A stretch of DNA of 64,000 nt from an uncultured virus (IMG/VR IMGVR_UViG_3300011612_000001) (lineage: Duplodnaviria; Heunggongvirae; Uroviricota; Caudoviricetes), in the IMG/VR virus record IMGVR_UViG_3300011612_000001, positions 1 to 64,000 of that record; one strand, written 5' to 3'. The translations under genes and the position numbers were made by a program. Under the pieces are notes generated by a model. It saw nothing but the letters and a program-made list of their open reading frames with translations, searched no databases and was not told the origin of the DNA. Within the stretch, counting starts at the first letter, position 1. Each line of letters starts with the position of its first letter. This document shows, one piece after another, positions 1-61,559 of the stretch.

Positions 1-73
1 CTCATGATGAACCCTGTTCCATGGCTCCAGATGACAAACATGATCTCATATCAGGGACTTGTTCGCACCTTCC
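1..73 (-). mobile_element. Left end of an IS5-family insertion sequence (continues out of window)
   Basis: Reverse complement starts GGAAGGTGCGAACAAGTCCCTGATATGAG, the IS5-type terminal repeat; flanked by CTAG (74-77), the YTAR target of IS5. Confidence 0.9.
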
Positions 74-1010
74 CTAGCTTCACTCATAGGCTTGTTCGGA
101 TCATTCCGCCCCGGAAAAACATAACGGTAGTTCCCTGTCATGATCTTGAGTTCTTCTAGTAAATCTAACGCTTGAGTCGATAACGGTACAAGATGTGGCC
201 TGCGCATTTTCATCCTTTCAGCAGGGATTTCCCAAATAGCGTTACCCAGATCAAATTCTGACCATAATGCCGCACGTAATTCGATGGTTCTCACACCAGT
301 GATCATTAGTAGTTTCGTGGCAAGCAGGACAAGCCGACTTCCGGTGTAACCGTTTAAAGCGCGTAGAAAATCAGGTATCTCATCAGCCTTTAGGAACGGG
401 AAGTGATTTGATTGATGTACTTCGAGAGCACTAGAGAGATCAGCCGCAGGATTAAACTCAGCCCTCCCTGTGGCGATAGCATAGCGGAAAACCTCAGAGC
501 AGCGCTGTCGTACCTTACGCATCTTTTCTAACGCCCCGCGCTTTTCAATTTTACGCAGCACGTTAAGCAGCTCTAAGGGCTTAATCTCACCGACTGGTCT
601 TATACTACATACGGGAAAATATCGTTCTGAAAAGCTTCCATGATGTCCGAGGCATATCCTGCCGACCATTTGGCTGACTTCATTTGATGCCACTCTCTGG
701 CAATCTTTTCGAAAGCATTCTCAGACTTGGTTAGCAATGCGAGCTTCTGCTCTTTTCGAACCTCACTAGGGTTCTTTCCTTCCGCGACCAGTTTTCGGGC
801 ATCGTCGCGACGGGAACGCGCATCGGCAAGTGTGATTGTTGGATAAACACCAAGCGAGATCATTTTGGGTTTACCAGCAAAACGATAACGGAACCGCCAA
901 CTCTTGCTTCCATTAGGTTCTATAAGCAATGACAGCCCTTGCCCATCTCCAAGTGTATAGGCTTTAGCTTCAGGCTTAGCGCGGCGAATCTGCATATCGT
1001 TTAAAGGCAT
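74..1010 (-). pseudogene. P4-type tyrosine integrase, frameshifted near 605 and truncated by IS5
   Basis: N-terminal arm-binding domain (MPLNDMQIRRAKP..GDGQGL..SWRFRYRFAGK) ends at DIFPYVV*; the catalytic part (RPVGEIKP..TGVRTIELR..KMRRPH) continues in another frame and stops at the IS end. Confidence 0.9.
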
Positions 1011-1160
1011 GTGTATAGGAATTAAGACCGAACAGGAACATATACACATTCAGTACCGGATTCTACTGGATGGTTACGGACAACCATGGACTAAAGAGAA
1101 TAAAAATCGTTATAAATCAGAGTATTCACGGACTAATACGGACGTTTGAGGAACTTGAGG

Positions 1161-3224: not shown

Positions 3225-4268
3225 TTACGAAGCATCGTTAGTGATGGCAGTTACCAGATCCGGGCGGTAGCAAATCGGCAACAGGCTGAACTCACTGGAA
3301 AGCGTAATGTTCTTATACGCATCGGTGCTGCTATAGATGCGGAAGTCCACCACGTCAGCAAAGGCCAATTCGAGATTTCGTGATGTAGGCCCGACAAGGT
3401 TGGTAAATGGTGATGCCTGATCAGCGCTTAACGGCTTCTCGAAGACCGGAACCATGAAGCCCTGATCTGCACCGACGCCGTAGAAATCGGTATCGGACAT
3501 CTCGACTACAGTCACGTTATCCAGGACGTAATAGCTGAATGCCGGATTGATCTCTTTATTGAATACCAGACCATCAGGATCAAGCACACCATACTGCACA
3601 AGCTGGCGAACCGATGGGTTAAAACGCAGCTTCTTGAACAGGTTGGAACCCGCGAACAGGTAGATGCCTTTCAGCAGGGAAGCAAGGCCACCCATGCGGC
3701 GTTTCATGGCACTGACCTCATCGGACAGGGATTCTAACGGATCAGCAGCAACCCCCGTGTAGATGGTTCCGGTGCTCTGGTCGTAACCAAATTCCTCTGA
3801 CCAATCCAGGATCGGGCCATCTGCGGTGTATTCCATATCGGTGACACGATGACGGAACAGGCTTTCAGCAAACATGCGTTCACGAGTCGCAGCGAAGCGT
3901 TCATAGTGAGCCAGGCTTTTAGCTGTCACAGCGTCCAGGACGTTGGCCTGTAGCGAAGAGCCGATCTTACGGAATGGCTGCACATCAGCAGCAGTGATCA
4001 CATCCTGCGTGGGGAACAGAGGAAGCTCGATCAGATGATTAGCTGCTTTTGGCTTCGGTGTGCTTCCCCATTCGCTGGAAAATCGATTTGCTGCCGGGGC
4101 GATGGCGATGGTGTCAGCCTGAGCGTTCAGGATGTCCAGACTGGTTTTAAACTGGTCAGTAACGTCACGCTGGAAAATGTTCAGGTTGGTTAAGATACGG
4201 TTTCGAGCCGGAACGTTCGCAAAGGTCGAACTGTAATCGACGTATGAAAAATCTTTTGTAAGAGCCAT
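3225..4268 (-). CDS. Major capsid protein, lambda gpE (Phage_cap_E)-like
   Basis: 347 aa; pattern LPLFPTQDVITAADVQPFRKIG..RFAATRERMFAESL..DWSEEFG..FKKLRFNPSV recognised as gpE-family; follows a small decoration-like gene. Confidence 0.8.
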   Translation of the reverse strand: MALTKDFSYVDYSSTFANVPARNRILTNLNIFQRDVTDQFKTSLDILNAQADTIAIAPAANRFSSEWGSTPKPKAANHLIELPLFPTQDVITAADVQPFRKIGSSLQANVLDAVTAKSLAHYERFAATRERMFAESLFRHRVTDMEYTADGPILDWSEEFGYDQSTGTIYTGVAADPLESLSDEVSAMKRRMGGLASLLKGIYLFAGSNLFKKLRFNPSVRQLVQYGVLDPDGLVFNKEINPAFSYYVLDNVTVVEMSDTDFYGVGADQGFMVPVFEKPLSADQASPFTNLVGPTSRNLELAFADVVDFRIYSSTDAYKNITLSSEFSLLPICYRPDLVTAITNDAS

Positions 4269-4292
4269 GTTGTGATGTCCTTATCGGTAAAA

Positions 4293-4637
4293 TTATTGAG
4301 CGTCAGCCTGCGCTAAGCGGATATTGCCGGATGCAGTCAGGGCAGCGAGGGCAGCAGCACCAACTGATGTCCCCATAACGGCGATCACTGTTTCCGGGCG
4401 GATGTAGACGCCACGGTCAGCAACGATGATGTTTGCATCTGTACCAGCGCGGTGATGGCTCAGAACCAGTAATGCATCATTGCCTGAGGTAAATGCAGTG
4501 CCATCAGCCTTAATAACCGAACCGGGCTGCACTTCGACAGCCAGGTTTGGGATGTTGATTGTTTTCACTGCAAAATTAGCGTCGGCCTGATAGGTCACGA
4601 CATCATTAAAGGTGCGTTGGGATTCGCCCATTTTCAT
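4293..4637 (-). CDS. Head decoration protein candidate (gpD-like)
   Basis: About 114 aa, Ala/Val/Gly-rich, VQPGSVI motif, ends ALTASGNI; directly upstream of capsid gene; GGAG SD. Confidence 0.6.
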   Translation of the reverse strand: MKMGESQRTFNDVVTYQADANFAVKTINIPNLAVEVQPGSVIKADGTAFTSGNDALLVLSHHRAGTDANIIVADRGVYIRPETVIAVMGTSVGAAALAALTASGNIRLAQADAQ

Positions 4638-4771
4638 AAAAGTCACTCCATAAAGTTGTTGTTTGCTGGCCTGTAGGCTTTGGCCTTTCGGGCCGTATCG
4701 TCAGAATTGACGGCGTGCGAGTACAAAAGAGGTCGCCAGTGGCGACCTTCCTTTATTTGTTTCTGCATCAG

Positions 4772-4800
4772 AAAAAAGGCGGGCGGCGAAGATACCGCCC
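4772..4800 (-). terminator. Intrinsic terminator ending the putative ncRNA
   Basis: GGGCGGU/GCCGCCC stem followed by GCC-U6 on minus strand. Confidence 0.7.
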
Positions 4801-5189
4801 CTGAGGAGCAACGAGGATCTTTATCGTTATTTTTCTGAGAGATGGGAATGTGCAGCGCCCTCTACGGGCGTTAGCTCTACTAACCCGGCTTTACCGGGCT
4901 GGAATAAGGGAGCGACAACGGCGGGAGACCTCTGAATCCCTACGCCGTGCGCTCGATGCCGTTTTATGTCCGGCAGACAGCCCGAGGAGAGCCGGGACTT
5001 ATTGCGGTTGTTAGACCGCTGGCAAACCCCATCGCGGAAGGCTAATACCACGGCAGGGGAATAAGCGGCGCTGGAAAGCAAAGATGGCCCGTGCGAGGTA
5101 TCAAGGAGCCAGCGCCTGAGAGGAGATTAAATTACGTTCAATTGGCTGTAGTTCGCAGTAGACTCTTTCGAATCCATTAATCACCCTAT
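4772..5189 (-). ncRNA. Putative structured non-coding RNA of about 420 nt
   Basis: Bracketed by promoter and terminator; roughly ten hairpins, most G-U pairs and a GAAA tetraloop favour the minus strand; no credible ORF. Confidence 0.6.
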
Positions 5190-5195
5190 GTTAGT

Positions 5196-5224
5196 ATTTT
5201 ACCATGAATGATAATCATTATCAA
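5196..5224 (-). promoter_or_regulatory. sigma70 promoter overlapped by a Fur-box palindrome
   Basis: TTGATA-17 bp-TAAAAT with extended TGn; TGATAATCATTATCA (5209-5223) is a perfect 7-1-7 Fur box. Confidence 0.7.
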
Positions 5225-5281
5225 CAAATTTCACGTAAATTCAGTCGGTAACTCATCCTGTATCGGCAATTCTGCCTTGAA

Positions 5282-5650
5282 TCACTCAATTCTTTTAAGC
5301 GGTGTGGATTCGATGATGTGCGAATAGCGTTCAGGGTCTGAGGCGACCACCTGGCGGCATTTATCCCGCGCCAGACGGAGCATTTCCGGATCAATCTCGT
5401 GGGCCTGGAAGCCACCTGCCCCAGCACCAAGCGCCTTTTTGATCTTCGCGGTTTTCTGCTTGGTGTTAGTCACTGGCGCGACTGCTGGCGCTGGCTTCGT
5501 TGATGGTTGCCAATCGGGATGGCGGATTAAATAGTCATCCACGGCGTTTTTTACATTCTGTTTGAGCTGTTCGGTTTCCATCTGTTCGATGGTGCGCCCG
5601 TTCATGGCTGCGGCTATGGAATCGCGAACGGTTTTGAGCAAGTTTTTCAT
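5282..5650 (-). CDS. Hypothetical protein
   Basis: 122 aa, AAGGA SD, part of leftward operon. Confidence 0.7.
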   Translation of the reverse strand: MKNLLKTVRDSIAAAMNGRTIEQMETEQLKQNVKNAVDDYLIRHPDWQPSTKPAPAVAPVTNTKQKTAKIKKALGAGAGGFQAHEIDPEMLRLARDKCRQVVASDPERYSHIIESTPLKRIE

Positions 5651-5750: not shown

Positions 5751-6407
5751 TCAGGCCGTCGCGGTCTGGCTCGCTGTTGTGGTTTGTTGGCTTTTTCTAA
5801 TGCAGCCCGCTTTACGCGCGTTAGCTCCGCTAACGTCACCTCGTGACGCTGGACTAACGCGGCGAACAGGGTTTATTTGAATAGGCCGCGATTTGCTCGC
5901 AGCTTTTCGGGCCACAACACGGCGGTATTCCACGCATAGCGGATCATTGTAATCTGGCATTCGTGGGGCCATTGCGGCCTCGGTAACCCCATCCCCCCGG
6001 AGGGACATCACCACAGTGAACAACGGCAAGCCCAGCGTCTGGCAGATTTCAGATAGCGTCGCCCCTTCACTCCACATAGTGTGGATTAATTTTCCATTGT
6101 TCGGGTTGGCAAATCGTCTGCATTTCGGATTGTAGGAATTATTATATAAATCAATAACCTTTTCCTGCGGCAGACGCAGCAGCAATGCCACGCGTCCTGG
6201 AGAATATCCCGCGATCAACATGTGCTTGCACCTCTGCATAACGTTGCCATCGCGGCAACGCCGTTTATATAGGCGGGTGAGGTCAGGTAATTCTGGGCCG
6301 GATAATGGTTCTGGGAGTTCGGGTAGGTCTGGAAGATCTTCTGGTAAATCTGTTTTTTGTTCTGGGTCGTTCTGGGTGGCGGTCAGCGCCTTGCGTTTCT
6401 CAATCAT
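5751..6407 (-). CDS. Protein with two HTH-like motifs
   Basis: GYSPGRVALLLRLP and GATLSEICQTLGLP; GAGGA SD. Confidence 0.65.
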   Translation of the reverse strand: MIEKRKALTATQNDPEQKTDLPEDLPDLPELPEPLSGPELPDLTRLYKRRCRDGNVMQRCKHMLIAGYSPGRVALLLRLPQEKVIDLYNNSYNPKCRRFANPNNGKLIHTMWSEGATLSEICQTLGLPLFTVVMSLRGDGVTEAAMAPRMPDYNDPLCVEYRRVVARKAASKSRPIQINPVRRVSPASRGDVSGANARKAGCIRKSQQTTTASQTATA

Positions 6408-8869: not shown

Positions 8870-9006
8870 TGATTTAGTTAACGGGTTTAGTTTACAGATT
8901 TAGTTGTTACTGGTTATAACTGGTATACCCCTTTCTGTTATAACAGGTATACCCCCTTCTGTTATAACTGGTATACCCAGACCACCTGTTATAACAGGTA
9001 TACCCC
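8870..9006. repeat. Iteron-type replication origin
   Basis: Four copies of GTTATAACWGGTATACCC at 8913, 8937, 8961, 8988 next to an AT-rich tract with three TTTAGTT. Confidence 0.75.
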
Positions 9007-9799
9007 TTCCCAGTGAAAATCTCCTACCCATGCCTCCGGCGCTGGCGCATCTTTTCTCAAAATAAATGCAGATAAATCCCCGTTAAATACGCGCTAATTC
9101 GACCAGTCCGGGTCAGTCTGAGACAATTTCCGCTCGTGGTAGTGGTCAAGTCACGACCTCCGCGATAGTGTGGAAAACATAACGATCAGGTCTGAGCGCC
9201 GCTCCAATTGCGGCTTCGTCAATTCTGTCTGCCGATATCGTGGCTTGCCTGTTCATCGCGGTGCTAAACCAAGTCCGCTCACAACGAAAAAATAATTCTT
9301 CGCCAAAAAACCAGAAACGATGAGAATCGCCTCGCTTTTAAGCCCGATTTTCAGGCTCACGGGACGCGTTCTGGAGGGCGCTGTGATTGCGGTTATCGTG
9401 ATTCAGATCGTGACGGCAAACGCCGCTAAGGGTTTCTGGTGAAGCGTGGTAAGGGTTGCCGGATGGTGGAAGGGTTGAGGCCGGAAATGTTGTGGGATGA
9501 GTTAAAGACCAGGGCCGGGAACCGGGCCATATCGCCCGTCATGTTGGTGGGGAAAATTGGCCCATAGGGCAGAGGGAAAAGTGAAGCCGTGAAAGTGAAG
9601 ACTTATAGTCTCCACTCTCCAAGTGGTTGATAATACGTAGATGAGCCTGCTCACATCATCAGACAGCCTTTATATGCATCGTTTATGCAGGATCAGGCAA
9701 GGTTTATTCACTTCTCTGATCTGGTGCTCGGGACTCGGGCGGGACTCGATAACCTGACCAGTAAGATATTTGCGAAAGAAGGTTGACTTTTCTCGCGGG

Positions 9800-10358: not shown

Positions 10359-10447
10359 ATTAAATTAAATCACTTTCCATGTTACTGTTTTTGATCAAAA
10401 ATACATCCATTGAAAGATTCAGAGCCGCACGGCGGCAAGGGGAGAAT

Positions 10448-11035
10448 ATGGGTAACGCAATGGTCGCGTTGAAAACCGCCGACGAAGTGAAAGCAGTCAG
10501 CGCGGAGTTAGCAAAGAACAAAAAGACGAACCTGTTTCGCTGCCTCTGGGCGATGCAATTTGAAAGCGCTCTTCGGTTCGGTGACGCCGTCAAATTGACG
10601 TGGGATCAGTTCGCGGAGGGTAAGACGCATCTTTCTATAAAGCAGGAGAAGACGGGGAAAATTCATAAGGTCGCCATTACCCCGGCTATGCGCTCCATAG
10701 TCCAAGCTCGCCGGGAAGAAGCAGCAGACCGCCCAAAATTCGGTGACTACATATTCAGCCTTTCTGATCTGAGATCGAAGGGTAAGCCAGTTTCACACAA
10801 CGCAGTGCTGACGGAGTACGGCAAGTGCGGACGCCGTGCAGGTTTCCAGGATGTGGGAAGTCATACACCACGCAAGAGCAAAGGCCGCATTCTCTTTGAG
10901 AACGGCGCACCGCTGGAGCACATCACAAAGTTGTTGGGCCAGGCCAACCCGGCTTCGACCCTGTTTTACATCGGGTTCACGCAGGAGACGGCTGACACAT
11001 TAGCGGGAGAATATTCTCTCGGGGAGGAATGGTAA
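10448..11035 (+). CDS. Small tyrosine recombinase (catalytic domain only)
   Basis: ALRFGD, QEKTGK, HTPRK, LGQ and TLFY motifs; GGGGAG SD before ATG 10448. Confidence 0.85.
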   Translation: MGNAMVALKTADEVKAVSAELAKNKKTNLFRCLWAMQFESALRFGDAVKLTWDQFAEGKTHLSIKQEKTGKIHKVAITPAMRSIVQARREEAADRPKFGDYIFSLSDLRSKGKPVSHNAVLTEYGKCGRRAGFQDVGSHTPRKSKGRILFENGAPLEHITKLLGQANPASTLFYIGFTQETADTLAGEYSLGEEW

Positions 11036-40351: not shown

Positions 40352-40426
40352 TGGTGCCGGGCAAAGGAATCGAACCTCTGACGCGCAGCTTACAAGGCTG
40401 CCGTTCTGCCACTGAACTAGACCGGC
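40352..40426 (-). tRNA. tRNA-Thr(TGT)
   Basis: Cloverleaf, loop CTTGTAA, TTCGA, CCA; one acceptor mismatch. Confidence 0.85.
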
Positions 40427-40431
40427 TTATT

Positions 40432-40507
40432 TGGTGGAACCCGATGGAATCGAACCATCTCCTAATGCTCTTCAGGCATCCGCGCGAACCATCTACGCCA
40501 GAGTTCC
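40432..40507 (-). tRNA. tRNA with GAA (Phe) anticodon, atypical D-arm
   Basis: GGAACTC/GGGTTCC acceptor, loop CTGAAGA, GTTCGATTC, ACCA. Confidence 0.7.
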
Positions 40508-40513
40508 GTAATT

Positions 40514-40588
40514 TGGCGGGACAGGAAGGATTCGAACCTTCGACCATTCGGTTAACAGCCGAACGCACAACCGCTGTGCTTCTGACCA
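40514..40588 (-). tRNA. tRNA-Asn(GTT), degenerate
   Basis: Loop CTGTTAA, GTTCGAATC, GCCA; two acceptor mismatches and A at position 8. Confidence 0.65.
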
Positions 40589-40700: not shown

Positions 40701-41381
40701 TTATGCAATACCTTGCTGATAATTAGTTGCCTTTTGTTGTGAACGTGATCGCGAAACCTGAATAAGAGACTGCGAATCAAGGCGTTTAAATATGCTTACC
40801 ATGCACTCCCAGTGCTCTACATAGTTCTGAGACCAGTTGGACTTAGTAACACCAACGAGCGCGGCGAGGTCTGCATATTGATAAGGATCGCTACCTGACA
40901 GGGTGGCTTTAGTGTCCTGCGCAGCAAGCCAGATTAGCGCTTTCAGTCTTTCCAGTGTTTTCCCGGCAATCTTTCGCGCGCCCAGTTGCGCACTAAACTC
41001 TGCCCAGGCCCATCGGGTGATCGCCACCTGGTATTCAAACCGAATGTTTTCGCTGTAGCTCCATAACAGCCAGGCCTTTTGATGCTCATCCATACTCATC
41101 ACCGCGCGGCGCCATGATGCTGTGGAATACTCTACCGGCTGAACCAGCGCTATAGATGAGCCTTTCGCCCTGCTCTGTTGTCCTGGAACGGGATCGCCGG
41201 TAAGCGTGATCATCTTCCCGGTTACCTCATCCCGAACGCGCAGGCGTTTACGCTTCAGTCGATTTGTGTCGAATTGAGCGTTCTCGGTCCACGCTACCAG
41301 TTGCCCCTTTGTCGCGCCGCTCAGATCGGCGGTTGCGGTCATTAACTCCTGACGAACATACTGCAAATATTGCTGAGTCAT
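40701..41381 (-). CDS. Q: Late antiterminator Q
   Basis: ADLSGATKGQL, STASWRRAV; last gene before tRNA/lysis block. Confidence 0.8.
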   Translation of the reverse strand: MTQQYLQYVRQELMTATADLSGATKGQLVAWTENAQFDTNRLKRKRLRVRDEVTGKMITLTGDPVPGQQSRAKGSSIALVQPVEYSTASWRRAVMSMDEHQKAWLLWSYSENIRFEYQVAITRWAWAEFSAQLGARKIAGKTLERLKALIWLAAQDTKATLSGSDPYQYADLAALVGVTKSNWSQNYVEHWECMVSIFKRLDSQSLIQVSRSRSQQKATNYQQGIA

Positions 41382-50518: not shown

Positions 50519-50566
50519 TGGCTTTGCAGCCACGTAGGTGAATCCATCACCGTTGTAGAAAGAGCG
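50519..50566 (-). promoter_or_regulatory. nutL
   Basis: boxA CGCTCTTT and boxB TGGCTGCAAAGCCA; matches nutR. Confidence 0.75.
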
Positions 50567-60779: not shown

Positions 60780-61559
60780 ATGAGACTTGAAAGCGCCGTT
60801 AAGTTTCACTCACCCAAATCACCACAACTAACAGACTCACCCAGGGCTACAGCCTCCGAGGCGTTAACAGGTACGGATGTGATGGCGGCATTCGGCATGG
60901 TGCAGAGTCGCGCTTCGCTCGGGTTCAGTGCTTTCAGCGGCAAGATGAACCTGAGCGATAACGACAAAAGGAAAGCAGTTCAGTTACTGGTACAGCATGG
61001 GATGAAGCATTGCGACAAGGTTGCAGCCTTTCGCAAGCTCGAAACCAATATTAAGGGCAAGGTCGTGCAAACGCTCGCAACTTTCGCGTACCAGGATTAT
61101 TGCCGCTCTGCCGCCAGTCAGCTTACCTGCCCGTGCTGCAAAGGCGCAGGGGTTATCAGGAAAAAGGAAATGGTGGTAAAGCACCCGGGATGCGGAGAGA
61201 AAACCCCAGCCAAAACAGCGGAGGAAACGGTGGAGGTGACCTGCACCAAATGCAAAGGTCGTGGAGTTCTCTCGACATCGTGCGTTAAATGCAGGGGGCG
61301 CGGTGTTGCTCTGGACAGGAAGAAATCAGAAGAGCAGGGCGTGCCGGTTATGAGTCCCTGTAAGCAGTGCTCAGGGCGTGGGTATGAAAAGTTGCCAGCA
61401 GCTTCATGTTACAGAGCAATCTGCAAGTTTACCGATGCTATCTCCCCGGGCGTGTGGGATAAGGCGATCAAGCCATTCTATGAGTCATTAATACTGGAAC
61501 TCGAAAAGGAAGAATCCGCAGCAGATGCCATTTTGGCGAAAGTTACGAGCAAAGTTTGA
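60780..61559 (+). CDS. Q: Late antiterminator (Zn-finger Q type)
   Basis: LTGTDVMAAFGM, four CxxCxGxG repeats; before lysis block. Confidence 0.8.
   Translation: MRLESAVKFHSPKSPQLTDSPRATASEALTGTDVMAAFGMVQSRASLGFSAFSGKMNLSDNDKRKAVQLLVQHGMKHCDKVAAFRKLETNIKGKVVQTLATFAYQDYCRSAASQLTCPCCKGAGVIRKKEMVVKHPGCGEKTPAKTAEETVEVTCTKCKGRGVLSTSCVKCRGRGVALDRKKSEEQGVPVMSPCKQCSGRGYEKLPAASCYRAICKFTDAISPGVWDKAIKPFYESLILELEKEESAADAILAKVTSKV

What the first reader, a model, noticed from the sequence alone, without database searches (positions are those of the whole stretch)
4772..5189. Structured ncRNA of about 420 nt with repeated anti-Shine-Dalgarno motifs, upstream of the satellite capsid genes
Seen on the minus strand: promoter (5196-5224), terminator (4772-4800) and about ten stems between them. 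Examples are UGGAUUC-GAAA-GAGUCUA, GGCGCUGG/CCAGCGCC, a three-way junction closed by GCUUAUU/AAUAAGU, CCCG-GCUCUCCU-CGGG and AGCCCGGU/GCCGGGUU. By hand count UCC occurs 13 times in 4801-5130 versus 2 on the other strand, including CUCCU x4 and CUUAUUCC x2, several in loops or linkers. UUAUUCC is complementary to GGAAUAA in the RBS of the element's own genes starting at 6407 and 5650 (short matches). Known analogy: C-rich loops of S. aureus RNAIII block RBSs. Inference: a multi-target translational repressor of helper or element mRNAs, or a leader gating capsid expression. An antisense GGA-rich CsrA sponge is a less favoured alternative.
Basis: partly seen in the sequence, partly recalled or inferred. 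Interest (0 to 1): 0.82.

Follow-up and report, generated by a model that had tools for sequence, protein, structure and literature searches.

The report
New folded RNA before satellite capsid genes
A roughly 420-base RNA with its own promoter and terminator, folded into about a dozen conserved stems, sits directly in front of the capsid genes of a small, undescribed phage-satellite-like element and most likely gates their expression.

Summary
On the window's minus strand a strong sigma-70 promoter (5224-5196) precedes about 417 nt with no conserved ORF, ending at an intrinsic terminator T1 (4800-4772). A second terminator T2 follows (4748-4730).

I recovered 43 full-length copies (34 distinct) from related elements. 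In 37 of 37 loci with enough downstream sequence the RNA lies directly upstream of a decoration-like gene and a major capsid gene, even where the capsid protein is only 28-34% identical.

Two covariance models give significant covariation. G-U outnumbers A-C 25 to 1 in the three best-aligned helices, so the minus strand is the RNA. Rfam 15 has no match, and this is not a VIPR RNA.

CUCC motifs are real: a family median of 6 against 0 GGAG, several in hairpin loops. The proposed pairing to the element's own ribosome-binding sites is no better than chance.

RNA-library contigs are deeper over the RNA than over the capsid genes (126 vs 9.4; 64 vs 10.6) and break or thin at T1.

Best reading (about 0.45): a structured leader/attenuator that gates capsid expression, whose terminated product accumulates. 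A trans-acting role is the main rival. The trigger is unknown.

The parts
5196..5224 (-). Sigma-70 promoter of the RNA: -35 TTGATA (5224-5219), 17-nt spacer, TG (5204-5203), -10 TAAAAT (5201-5196)
   Evidence: 10 of 12 matches, TG present. The -10 hexamer, TG and TTG of the -35 are conserved in 35 distinct upstream regions from 44 loci, while the spacer varies.
4772..5189 (-). The non-coding RNA, about 417 nt, from the predicted start (about 7 nt after the -10) to the U run of T1
   Evidence: 43 full-length homologues of 337-448 nt, 34 distinct. No conserved ORF: longest sense ORF 43-111 aa, lengths mod 3 = 10/14/10. No Rfam match.
5122..5185 (-). 5' three-way domain. The invariant GGUGAU (5185-5180) pairs with AAUCUCC (about 5128-5122) and encloses the P1 GNRA hairpin (5176-5159) and a UGCG/CGUA helix
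   Evidence: Per-sequence folds of 24 distinct 5' segments give the same closing helix and the same P1. P1 variants are compensatory. GGTGA is invariant in 34 of 34.
5067..5116 (-). H4: long stem GGCGCUGG (5116-5109) / CCAGCGCC (5074-5067) with two inner helices and a conserved GCACGRGCC tip
   Evidence: Model R2. Helix 1 is 98.1% paired. Inner helices have 3 of 4 and 2 of 3 pairs with changes on both sides.
5033..5052 (-). P5 hairpin CGUGG (5052-5048) / CCGCG (5037-5033), loop AUUAGCCUU
   Evidence: helix 4 (2 of 7 pairs changed on both sides). 18 distinct variants; cognate -6.8 vs chimeric -3.8 kcal/mol.
5021..5030 (-). Conserved single-stranded GGGGUUUGCC (GGRUUWGCC in the family); partner unknown
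   Evidence: GG.TT.GC is invariant in 34 of 34 distinct sequences. Used as an anchor.
4910..4996 (-). 3' core: HpA (4996-4981, loop CUCUCCU), HpB (4975-4957) and the long PC stem GAGCGC...GCGCUC (4954-4910) with tip AGAUUCAGAGGUCUCC
   Evidence: Model R1 finds it in 43 places in 50 sources, all with E <= 2.6e-8. 92.6% paired vs 87.5 +/- 0.5 shuffled; 7 of 19 pairs changed on both sides. G-U 25 vs A-C 1 in helices 1-3.
4851..4902 (-). Optional cloverleaf-like insert: closing stem CAGC/GCUG around three 4-5-bp hairpins
   Evidence: Present in only some members and at other places in others. No match in E. coli genomes.
4809..4838 (-). Invariant UCAGAAAA plus an A-rich stretch (4838-4829), followed by the small PD hairpin AACGA/UCGUU
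   Evidence: TCAGAA.A is invariant in 34 of 34. PD has 14 distinct compensatory variants; cognate -2.7 vs chimeric -1.3 kcal/mol.
4772..4808 (-). Single-stranded GCUCCUCA followed by intrinsic terminator T1 (stem 4800-4781, U run to 4772)
   Evidence: A terminator is at this place in all 43 copies, though the T-run was part of the extraction rule. 19 distinct stems; cognate -12.8 vs chimeric -9.9 kcal/mol. RNA-library contigs break here.
4724..4748 (-). Second intrinsic terminator T2 (stem 4748-4730 plus a T run)
   Evidence: Present in many members, absent in L044 and L058.
4699..4712 (-). Dyad / hairpin CGUCA-AUUC-UGACG in the leader between T2 and the decoration gene
   Evidence: It varies with compensation (GUCA/UGAC, GGCG/CGUC, GGCA/UGCC). 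The same half-sites flank the -35 of the RNA promoter in some members.
4293..4646 (-). Head-decoration-like gene, the first gene after the RNA
   Evidence: phrog_2680, E 3.6e-6. A 110-140-aa ORF follows the RNA in 40 of 42 loci; the other 2 are cut short.
3225..4268 (-). Major capsid protein gene (Phage_cap_E family)
   Evidence: PF03864 E 1e-17 and phrog_29. A homologue follows in 37 of 37 loci with enough sequence, at 28-98% identity.

Best explanation
This is a new family of independently promoted, highly folded non-coding RNA (337-448 nt; 417 nt here) that forms the first unit of the capsid module of a small integrase-bearing satellite-like element.

Shown:
- A strong sigma-70 promoter starts the RNA at a conserved RRGGUGAU.
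- The RNA folds into about 12 helices.
- An intrinsic terminator T1, often backed by T2, ends it 125 nt before the decoration and capsid genes.
- RNA-library contigs are 6- to 13-fold deeper over the RNA than over the capsid genes. The low-depth capsid contigs reach into or across T1/T2.

Inferred:
- The unit works as a leader/attenuator. In the resting state nearly all transcription stops at T1/T2, and the terminated RNA accumulates.
- When a helper phage or an element-encoded factor acts on the leader or on RNA polymerase, transcription reads through into the decoration and capsid genes.
- The RNA core keeps its sequence while the capsid protein falls to 28% identity. This suggests it contacts conserved host machinery (RNA polymerase, ribosome or an RNA chaperone).
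- The trigger and the contact are not identified. The CUCC loops and the A-rich/hairpin/U-tail 3' end may give the terminated RNA a second, trans-acting role.
For: - Promoter and terminators.
- Conservation: 43 full-length copies, 34 distinct. Model R1 finds 43 hits in 50 sources. 4 of 151 family-level genomes carry it, one copy each.
- Structure: one search gives 92.6% paired vs 87.5 +/- 0.5, and 31 cells changed on both sides vs 11.5 +/- 3 (0 of 500 shuffles); slid controls pair 34-46%. One search gives 89.3% vs 84.0 +/- 0.6, and 9 of 22 pairs changed on both sides vs 3.8 +/- 1.3 (0 of 500); slid controls 28-52%. Cognate halves fold better than chimeric halves for all eight single helix modules tested.
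- Strand: G-U 25 vs A-C 1 in helices 1-3.
- Synteny: a decoration-like ORF follows in 40 of 42 loci. A capsid homologue follows in 37 of 37, at 28-98% identity.
- Transcripts: run X1 has a contig of depth 126 covering 4801-5189 and a separate contig of depth 9.4 covering 4100-4786, which runs through T2 into T1. Run X9 has depth 64 at 4984-5159, 18 at 4820-5013 and 10.6 at 4516-4849, the last bridging T1 and T2.
- No sigma-70 promoter-like site was found between T1 and the decoration gene.
- No conserved ORF.
Against: - No antiterminator, pause element or alternative anti-terminator pairing was identified.
- The -10-like hexamer after the start is not conserved: its A2 position varies.
- The promoter region has no similarity to the two PR'-like regions downstream of the Q genes in the same window or to any phage record.
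- A simple gate would not need 12 conserved helices.
- A dyad between T2 and the decoration gene could be an operator of a weak, activator-dependent capsid promoter. That would make the RNA an insulated, independent gene.
- Logan contigs cannot show strand, ends or local depth, and may include DNA. Run X13 is flat at about 24 throughout, and the raw-read run X23 laid no reads.
- Both alignments used for pair counts were fitted to the model.
Confidence: 0.45

Rival explanations
1. A stand-alone trans-acting regulatory RNA. The terminated RNA is the product. Its CUCC-bearing loops and single strands pair with GGAG-type ribosome-binding sites of helper (or host) mRNAs, perhaps with Hfq bound to the A-rich stretch and U tail. 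This would shut down helper late proteins while the satellite's own capsid genes are expressed from their own promoter.
For: - CUCC has a family median of 6 against GGAG 0, and 17 of 34 members have at most 5 of 200 shuffles as high.
- CUCC sits in the HpA loop in most variants (loop list) and in the PC tip.
- The 3' end is an invariant UCAGAAAA plus A-rich run, a hairpin, UCCUCC, a terminator and a U tail.
- There are two terminators, and the RNA is more abundant than the capsid region in RNA libraries.
- Satellites with abundant ncRNAs complementary to gene leaders are known: the PLE IIR transcript and P4 CI (passages of PMC7567579).
Against: - No target was found. Pairing to the element's own ribosome-binding sites is at chance level.
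- The helper is unknown, so helper targets were not tested.
- Strict adjacency to the capsid genes (37 of 37) is not required by a trans role.
- Low-depth contigs run from the capsid genes into T1.
- Some CUCC copies are paired inside the RNA with the 5' GGUGA.
Confidence: 0.25
2. A folded RNA cofactor that binds a conserved protein or the capsid machinery. Examples would be a sponge for a host RNA-binding protein, or an assembly/packaging cofactor for satellite-sized capsids in the manner of the phi29 pRNA.
For: - The sequence of the core is conserved far beyond that of the neighbouring capsid proteins (R1 hits with E <= 2.6e-8 where the capsid protein is 28-34% identical).
- A GNRA tetraloop on P1 and many junctions are typical of RNAs with a tertiary fold (the typicality is recalled).
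- The RNA, decoration and capsid genes travel as one block while the integrase and replication modules are swapped.
- The element has no recognisable scaffold, protease or portal gene.
Against: - There is no direct evidence.
- No similarity to pRNA or any other Rfam family.
- The 5' domain has two different architectures in the family: R2 finds 37 matches in 51 sources and misses the L003-type clade. That is unexpected for a rigid cofactor.
Confidence: 0.1
3. A DNA-level site (packaging cos/pac site or replication origin) rather than an RNA.
For: - Satellites need a packaging site, and none was identified.
- The upstream 218-aa protein has a bipartite helix-turn-helix fold with weak terminase-small-subunit-like leads.
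Against: - G-U 25 vs A-C 1 in the best-aligned helices shows strand-specific pairing.
- Promoter and terminator are conserved.
- Iterons typical of an origin lie elsewhere, at 8911-9036, and there are no repeats inside the region.
- No similarity to any phage record.
Confidence: 0.05
4. A GGA-rich CsrA-type sponge transcribed from the plus strand, or a decayed coding sequence.
For: - The plus strand has 13 GGA and 6 GGAG in 4801-5130, and hairpin loops would display them.
- The plus strand folds slightly better (z -2.9).
- An 84-aa ORF exists at 4827-5081.
Against: - No promoter or terminator faces that way.
- On the plus strand the G-U pairs of helices 1-3 would become mismatches.
- ORFs are not conserved, and lengths are spread over all three residues mod 3.
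- The 84-aa ORF matches no Pfam or PHROG family.
Confidence: 0.02

Closest known systems
Lambdoid late-gene control: PR' promoter, short terminated transcript (6S RNA / StxS), tR', Q antiterminator
   Same: A strong promoter is followed by a terminated non-coding transcript directly upstream of structural genes. Expression of those genes then needs read-through of one or more terminators.
   Different: - There is no Q gene upstream: the 122-aa and 218-aa neighbours match no Q family.
- No conserved -10-like pause element.
- No similarity to the two PR'-like regions in the same window.
- The RNA is 2-5 times longer and has about 12 covarying helices, which a Q-type leader does not need.
Satellite and phage regulatory RNAs: P4 CI / P1 C4 antisense RNA and the PLE IIR transcript
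   Same: An abundant non-coding RNA encoded by a phage satellite and proposed to regulate the element's own or the helper's genes (passages of PMC7567579).
   Different: - No Rfam C4 match.
- No complementarity to the element's leaders beyond chance.
- Much larger.
- Located before capsid genes rather than replication genes.
HK022 put RNA and EAR: cis-acting RNAs that make RNA polymerase terminator-resistant
   Same: A folded RNA transcribed just after a promoter and upstream of terminators and a long operon. It could explain why the sequence is conserved independently of phage proteins. (Recalled; not tested.)
   Different: - put is about 70 nt with two stem-loops, whereas this RNA is about 420 nt.
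- RNA-library contigs suggest T1 stops most transcription, so any antitermination must be conditional.
Large ornate RNAs of phage-like elements (GOLLD, ROOL) and C-rich-loop regulators such as S. aureus RNAIII
   Same: Large size, many helices, residence in a mobile element and unknown function (GOLLD/ROOL). Pyrimidine-rich loop motifs complementary to Shine-Dalgarno sequences (RNAIII; recalled).
   Different: - No Rfam match to GOLLD, ROOL or RNAIII.
- Not next to tRNA genes.
- Enterobacterial host.
- No demonstrated target.
VIPR solo vrRNAs of F5 satellites (bioRxiv 10.64898/2026.10.15.759431; abstract, introduction, results parts and one method section read)
   Same: A conserved non-coding locus in an E. 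coli-type phage satellite.
   Different: - vrRNAs are arrays of GGYNN units with a 40-nt tail. The window has no run of 4 or more such units on either strand.
- F5 satellites carry tape-measure and baseplate genes, not capsid genes.

Membership tests
Any Rfam 15 family | Covariance-model score at or above the family's gathering threshold | tested here: not met
   Window: only 3 tRNAs pass. In 4400-5600 with E up to 10 there are 7 weak matches, all far below gathering. In 12 diverse homologous loci only a chromosomal TPP riboswitch passes.
Lambdoid PR'/qut/tR' late leader | Lies directly downstream of a Q antiterminator gene | tested here: not met
   The upstream genes (122 aa, 218 aa) match no Q family in Pfam or PHROGs. 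The 218-aa protein folds as a bipartite helix-turn-helix.
Lambdoid PR'/qut/tR' late leader | Strong promoter, short terminated transcript, structural genes beyond the terminator | tested here: met
Lambdoid PR'/qut/tR' late leader | Conserved -10-like sigma-dependent pause element in the first ~25 transcribed bases | tested here: not met
   The candidate hexamer TAGGGT varies at its first two positions (TA, CA, TG, TT, CG, AG) across 35 distinct sequences.
P4 CI / C4-type antisense RNA | Complementarity to leader sequences of the element's own operon | tested here: not met
   The best inverted repeat involving the RNA is 25 nt at 72% with a 10-nt perfect core. About 3 such matches are expected by chance. 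Duplex z-scores run from -2.4 to +1.25 for six ribosome-binding sites.
CsrB/RsmZ-type protein sponge | Many GGA motifs in loops on the transcribed strand | tested here: not met
   There are 2 GGA on the RNA strand and 13 on the opposite strand. The opposite strand is excluded by G-U 25 vs A-C 1 and by promoter and terminator orientation.
VIPR vrRNA | Tandem GG[C/T]NN units (at least 4; typically 10-12) followed by a conserved tail | tested here: not met
   No run of 4 or more units, and no 8-unit window with 6 or more conforming units, on either strand of the 64-kb window.
Hfq-dependent sRNA (3' module) | Intrinsic terminator with U tail preceded by A-rich (ARN-type) or U-rich single strand; Hfq binding | not testable with these tools
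   The sequence features are present (UCAGAAAAAUAAC..., hairpin, terminator, U run). Binding cannot be tested. The motif definition is recalled.
RNAIII-like C-rich-loop translational repressor | Pyrimidine-rich motifs in hairpin loops that pair with Shine-Dalgarno regions of defined targets | tested here: inconclusive
   The loop motifs are present and conserved. No target is supported, and the helper mRNAs are unknown.
Protein-coding gene (decayed) | A reading frame conserved among homologues | tested here: not met
   The longest sense ORF is 43-111 aa. Lengths mod 3 are 10/14/10 among 34 sequences. Hairpin-sized indels are seen.

The most novel reading that the evidence does not exclude
The RNA is itself the switch. 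It would be a large folded RNA that binds conserved host machinery (RNA polymerase or the ribosome) and senses a helper-infection cue, converting the polymerase that made it into a terminator-resistant form. This would be a put/EAR-like processive antiterminator several times larger than any known, dedicated to timing satellite capsid production. Alternatively it doubles as a cofactor for building satellite-sized capsids.
Probability: 0.15. Interest if true: 0.85.

Novelty: new variant of a known kind. Interest (0 to 1): 0.68.

Why it matters
How satellites time the production of their own structural proteins to a helper infection is known for only a few systems.

This is an unrecorded RNA family, absent from Rfam 15. 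Three literature searches found no description of it. It is tightly and universally linked to the capsid module of a satellite-like family that carries only a capsid and a decoration gene, a family that also appears undescribed.

The RNA core is better conserved than the proteins beside it. That points to a direct interaction with conserved host machinery.

Intact copies occur in public strains, among them three DSM/NBRC collection strains (Rahnella woolbedingensis DSM 27399, Biostraticola tofi DSM 19580, Raoultella terrigena NBRC 14941) and E. coli strain C21-2. The hypothesis is therefore directly testable.

A similar promoter / long RNA / multiple terminators / capsid-gene layout was noted by this scan in an unrelated element. 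The architecture may be a general satellite strategy.

Tried and rejected
- **Rfam.** Gathering and E-value modes on the window and on 12 homologous loci: nothing.
- **BLAST of the RNA against phage records**: no match.
- **VIPR vrRNA idea.** Followed after reading bioRxiv 10.64898/2026.10.15.759431: no GGYNN arrays.
- **Replication origin.** Iterons are at 8911-9036, not in the region.
- **Pairing to the element's own ribosome-binding sites and antisense targets**: at chance level. A first, larger duplex run timed out.
- **Whole-RNA MAFFT plus RNAalifold**: only 18 pairs, because variable hairpins misalign. Replaced by module folds and two covariance models.
Replaced by 110- and 102-position models.
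- **Q-INS-i** is not installed.
- **Pattern scan of viral contigs for the 3' motif**: one known locus and one unrelated GC-rich chance match.
- **Cloverleaf insert against E. coli genomes**: no match.
- **Similarity of the RNA's 5' end to the boxB hairpin** of the neighbouring prophage's nutL, GGTGATGGATTCACC: a single site and a post-hoc resemblance, so no weight was given.
- **Raw-read run X23:** no reads laid, so no test.
- **Fold of the 218-aa neighbour**: weak paired-domain/Tc3-like bipartite helix-turn-helix (best E 0.037), not an N- or Q-like antiterminator.
- **Whole 5'-end segment halves** (D5a, from the 5' end to CUCUCAGG): cognate -15.04 vs chimeric -14.86 kcal/mol, no difference.
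- **Optional hairpin module:** cognate -5.97 vs chimeric -6.07 kcal/mol, no difference.
Full report
**What is there.** Reading the minus strand gives, in order:
- the stop of a 122-aa ORF at 5282;
- a sigma-70 promoter, TTGATA (5224-5219), 17 nt, TG, TAAAAT (5201-5196), with 10 of 12 consensus matches;
- about 417 nt without a meaningful ORF (one search lists only an 84-aa TTG ORF);
- an intrinsic terminator T1 (stem 4800-4781, U run to 4772);
- a second terminator T2 (4748-4730);
- a small dyad/hairpin (4712-4699);
- the ribosome-binding site and start of a 117-aa head-decoration-like gene (4646-4293; phrog_2680);
- a major capsid gene (4268-3225; PF03864 E 1e-17).

Upstream on the same strand lie genes of 218 aa and 393 aa, the latter replication-initiator-like (phrog_8102). 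An integrase reads the other way at 1312-2523. No terminase, portal, protease or tail gene belongs to this ~9-kb block. The window is an IMG/VR record. The rest of it is one or two lambdoid prophages. I call the block satellite-like; that is an inference from gene content.

**Is it more than chance?** The single-sequence fold is only modestly better than shuffles (z -2.2; opposite strand -2.9). The case rests on comparison.
- Close relatives of the capsid gene were found in Rahnella, Biostraticola and Raoultella genomes, one viral contig and E. coli.
- An alignment of the 218-aa protein (A2) brought 3 viral and 39 metagenomic loci.
- blastn with nine seed regions hit 37 of these 42 loci. The 5 misses are contigs that end too soon.
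- A motif-anchored script extracted 43 full-length copies, 34 distinct, of 337-448 nt.
- All 43 copies carry the -10 hexamer plus GGTGA and a T-run end, but both were part of the extraction rule. Independently, 35 distinct upstream regions keep the -10 hexamer, the TG and the TTG of the -35, while the spacer is free.
- GGTGA at the start, GGRTTWGC, GAGYRC...GCTC and TCAGAAAA are invariant or nearly so.
- Hairpin-sized insertions and replacements are common.
- The longest ORFs vary from 43 to 111 aa, and lengths fall evenly in all three classes mod 3.

**Structure.** RNAalifold on the raw MAFFT alignment failed, giving 18 pairs, because replaced hairpins misalign.

Folding each module on its own showed the same hairpin at the same place with different stems. 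Examples:
- HpA: CCCGG/CCGGG, CCUGG/CCAGG, CCUGC/GCAGG, CCGGG/CCCGG, CCUUUC/GGAAGG.
- P1: GGAUUC-GAAA-GAGUCU, GUCUG-GUAA-CAGAC, GAUUC-GUGAU-GAAUC.

Cognate halves fold better than chimeric halves for all eight single helix modules tested:

| Module | Cognate (kcal/mol) | Chimeric (kcal/mol) |
|---|---|---|
| HpA | -5.2 | -2.2 |
| HpB | -6.0 | -4.1 |
| PC | -21.6 | -18.8 |
| PD | -2.7 | -1.3 |
| T1 | -12.8 | -9.9 |
| P1 | -5.2 | -3.6 |
| H4 | -19.4 | -17.0 |
| P5 | -6.8 | -3.8 |

Two further comparisons showed no difference: the whole 5' segment (-15.0 vs -14.9) and the optional hairpin (-6.0 vs -6.1).

Two covariance models gave formal counts:
- **R1 (3' core, 19 pairs)** matched 43 places in 50 sources with E <= 2.6e-8. 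On 30 distinct rows, 92.6% of cells pair against 87.5 +/- 0.5 in shuffles. 7 of 19 pairs change on both sides. 31 such cells are seen against 11.5 +/- 3 (0 of 500). Slid controls pair 34-46%.
- **R2 (H4 plus P5, 22 pairs)** gave 37 matches in 51 sources. On 27 distinct rows, 89.3% pair against 84.0 +/- 0.6. 9 of 22 pairs change on both sides against 3.8 +/- 1.3 (0 of 500). Slid controls pair 28-52%.

Both alignments were fitted to the models, which favours pairing. The both-sides counts and the slid controls are the more robust numbers. R2 misses the L003-type clade, whose 5' domain has a different architecture. The conserved unit is therefore the start, the 3' core and the tail.

**Which strand?** In the three well-aligned helices of R1 there are 25 G-U cells and 1 A-C cell. 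Over all five helices the counts are 32 and 12. Promoter and terminators face the same way. This settles the minus strand and removes the plus-strand CsrA-sponge idea.

**Not a known family.** Rfam 15 gives nothing for the window or for 12 diverse relatives. blastn against 50,697 phage records gives nothing. A recent preprint reports solo guide RNAs in another satellite family (bioRxiv 10.64898/2026.10.15.759431; abstract, introduction, results sections and one method section read). Those are GGYNN arrays, and the window has none.

The counts are exact. In the window alone they do not exceed dinucleotide shuffles. Across the family CUCC has a median of 6 and GGAG a median of 0, and the motif recurs in the HpA loop, the PC tip and just before T1. 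The motif is therefore a conserved feature. Pairing to the element's own ribosome-binding sites is not supported:
- z is -0.06 for the site at 5650.
- z is -2.4 for the site at 6407, and this rests on a 10-nt complement. Roughly three such matches are expected by chance in the element.
- At least one CUCC copy is paired inside the RNA with the invariant 5' GGUGA.

**Context.**
- A decoration-like ORF follows the RNA in 40 of 42 loci; the other two are cut short. A capsid homologue follows in 37 of 37 loci with enough sequence, at 28-98% identity to the window's.
- The RNA core thus stays recognisable where the capsid protein has fallen to 28-34% identity.
- Integrase and replication genes are exchanged between members.
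- The capsid protein has no close phage relative: at most 26% identity in the rows listed, all 120 matching records under 60%. It is unrelated to the neighbouring prophage's capsid protein. The helper is unknown.
- The family is rare. The capsid gene is in 3 of 401 order-level genomes, the RNA core in 4 of 151 family-level genomes, and the capsid module in 22 of 5426 E. coli genomes.
- In 19 E. coli genomes only the last ~95 nt of my query remain. In the one I opened, IS fragments abut the break.

**Transcripts.** Nine runs on record as RNA hold part of the stretch, and several more are of uncertain type. I laid four.
- **X1 (metatranscriptome):** one contig of mean depth 126 covers 4801-5189 and continues upstream through a variant segment. 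A separate contig of depth 9.4 covers 4100-4786, running from the capsid genes through T2 into the 3' half of T1.
- **X9 (isolate transcriptome):** depth is 64 at 4984-5159, 18 at 4820-5013 and 10.6 at 4516-4849. The last contig bridges both terminators.
- **X13:** flat at about 24, with a bridging contig.
- **X23 (raw reads):** no reads laid.

Contigs carry no strand or end information, their depth is a contig-wide mean, and DNA may contaminate such libraries. With that caveat, the pattern fits a unit transcribed more strongly than the capsid genes, a 6- to 13-fold drop at T1, and low-level capsid transcripts that are continuous with the RNA.

**Mechanism.** I favour a leader/attenuator (0.45). 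A strong promoter, a long folded leader, one or two terminators and then structural genes is the logic of lambdoid late control. The synteny and the contigs agree with it, and no sigma-70-like promoter was found between T1 and the decoration gene.

Against it:
- No Q-like gene, pause element or anti-terminator pairing was found.
- The 218-aa neighbour looks like a bipartite helix-turn-helix DNA binder.
- A mere gate does not explain a dozen conserved helices.
- The dyad after T2 could be an operator of a separate capsid promoter. Its half-sites also flank the RNA promoter in some members.

The main rival (0.25) is a trans-acting RNA using its CUCC loops and an Hfq-like 3' module. A protein-binding or assembly cofactor (0.10), a DNA site (0.05) and the plus-strand or coding readings (0.02) follow.

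I did not test it. It suggests the architecture recurs, but it is not independent support.

**Novelty.** The RNA family is new to Rfam 15. It was not found in three full-text searches (listings and abstracts seen, passages of PMC7567579 read, the first of two parts of PMC12772148 read and found irrelevant). The kind, a terminated leader RNA before late genes of a mobile element, is known. The size, fold and satellite setting make it a new variant.

Noticed in passing
window 4851-4902 (-); also L006/L060 earlier in the RNA, L007/L008/L039/L040/L053 between T1 and T2, L041/L058 upstream of the promoter, nested copy in L058: A ~50-nt cloverleaf-like module: closing stem CAGC/GCUG around three 4-6-bp hairpins with 4-5-nt loops. 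It sits at different places in different elements, inside and outside the RNA, as if it were a small mobile insert. No match in 5426 E. coli genomes.
   Followed up: partly
window 5209-5223 (-): A perfect dyad TGATAATGATTATCA overlaps the -35 and spacer of the RNA promoter and resembles a Fur box (15 of 19 to the consensus as I recall it). It is kept in some members (L005, L008, L017 variants) and absent in others, so it looks like an element-specific operator.
   Followed up: partly
window 4699-4712 (-) and promoter regions of L039/L040/L047-type loci: CGTCA/TGACG half-sites form the dyad after T2. In some members they also flank the -35 of the RNA promoter about 16 nt apart, hinting at one regulator for both places.
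   Followed up: no
window 8911-9036: Three to four direct repeats of CTGTTATAAC(A/T)GGTATACCCC with internal palindromes. These are probable iterons of the element's replication origin, upstream of the replication-initiator-like gene.
   Followed up: no
window 5751-6407 (-): The 218-aa protein is conserved with the RNA (43-88% identity in 22 sequences). It has an invariant basic stretch T-R-x-x-K-x-R-x-R. Its model is two helix-turn-helix domains with weak likeness to paired/Tc3 bipartite DNA-binding domains (best E 0.037) and weak terminase-small-subunit leads.
   Followed up: partly
E. coli records (e.g. L004, NZ_CP026399.1): In 19 of 5426 complete E. coli genomes the capsid module is present but only the last ~95 nt of the RNA-to-leader region remain. 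In the one record opened, IS3/IS110/group II intron fragments lie at the break.
   Followed up: partly
window 50537-50551 (-): The neighbouring prophage's nutL has boxA CGCTCTTTCTACAA and a boxB hairpin GGTGATGGATTCACC. Its halves, GGTGAT and TGGATTC, also occur at the RNA's 5' end (GGTGATTAATGGATTC). There is a single site and the resemblance is post hoc.
   Followed up: partly
L003, L018, L045, L055, L056 (RNA positions about 45-75): The alternative 5' domain of this clade contains a hairpin followed by a U run (AAAGCGGUUUUGUCAGAGCCGCUUUUAUU) that looks like an early intrinsic terminator inside the RNA.
   Followed up: no
window 40355-40588 (-), 40701-41381 (-), 60780-61559 (+): There are two different Q-like antiterminator genes. 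The first is followed by a short terminated leader and three tRNA genes. The window therefore holds parts of two lambdoid prophages beside the satellite-like element.
   Followed up: no
window 46-1049 (-): A P4-type integrase is split into two overlapping ORFs (Arm-DNA-bind_3 plus the catalytic part), probably frameshifted. With two further integrase genes at 1312-2523 and 10379-11035, this suggests a tandem integration hot spot.
   Followed up: no
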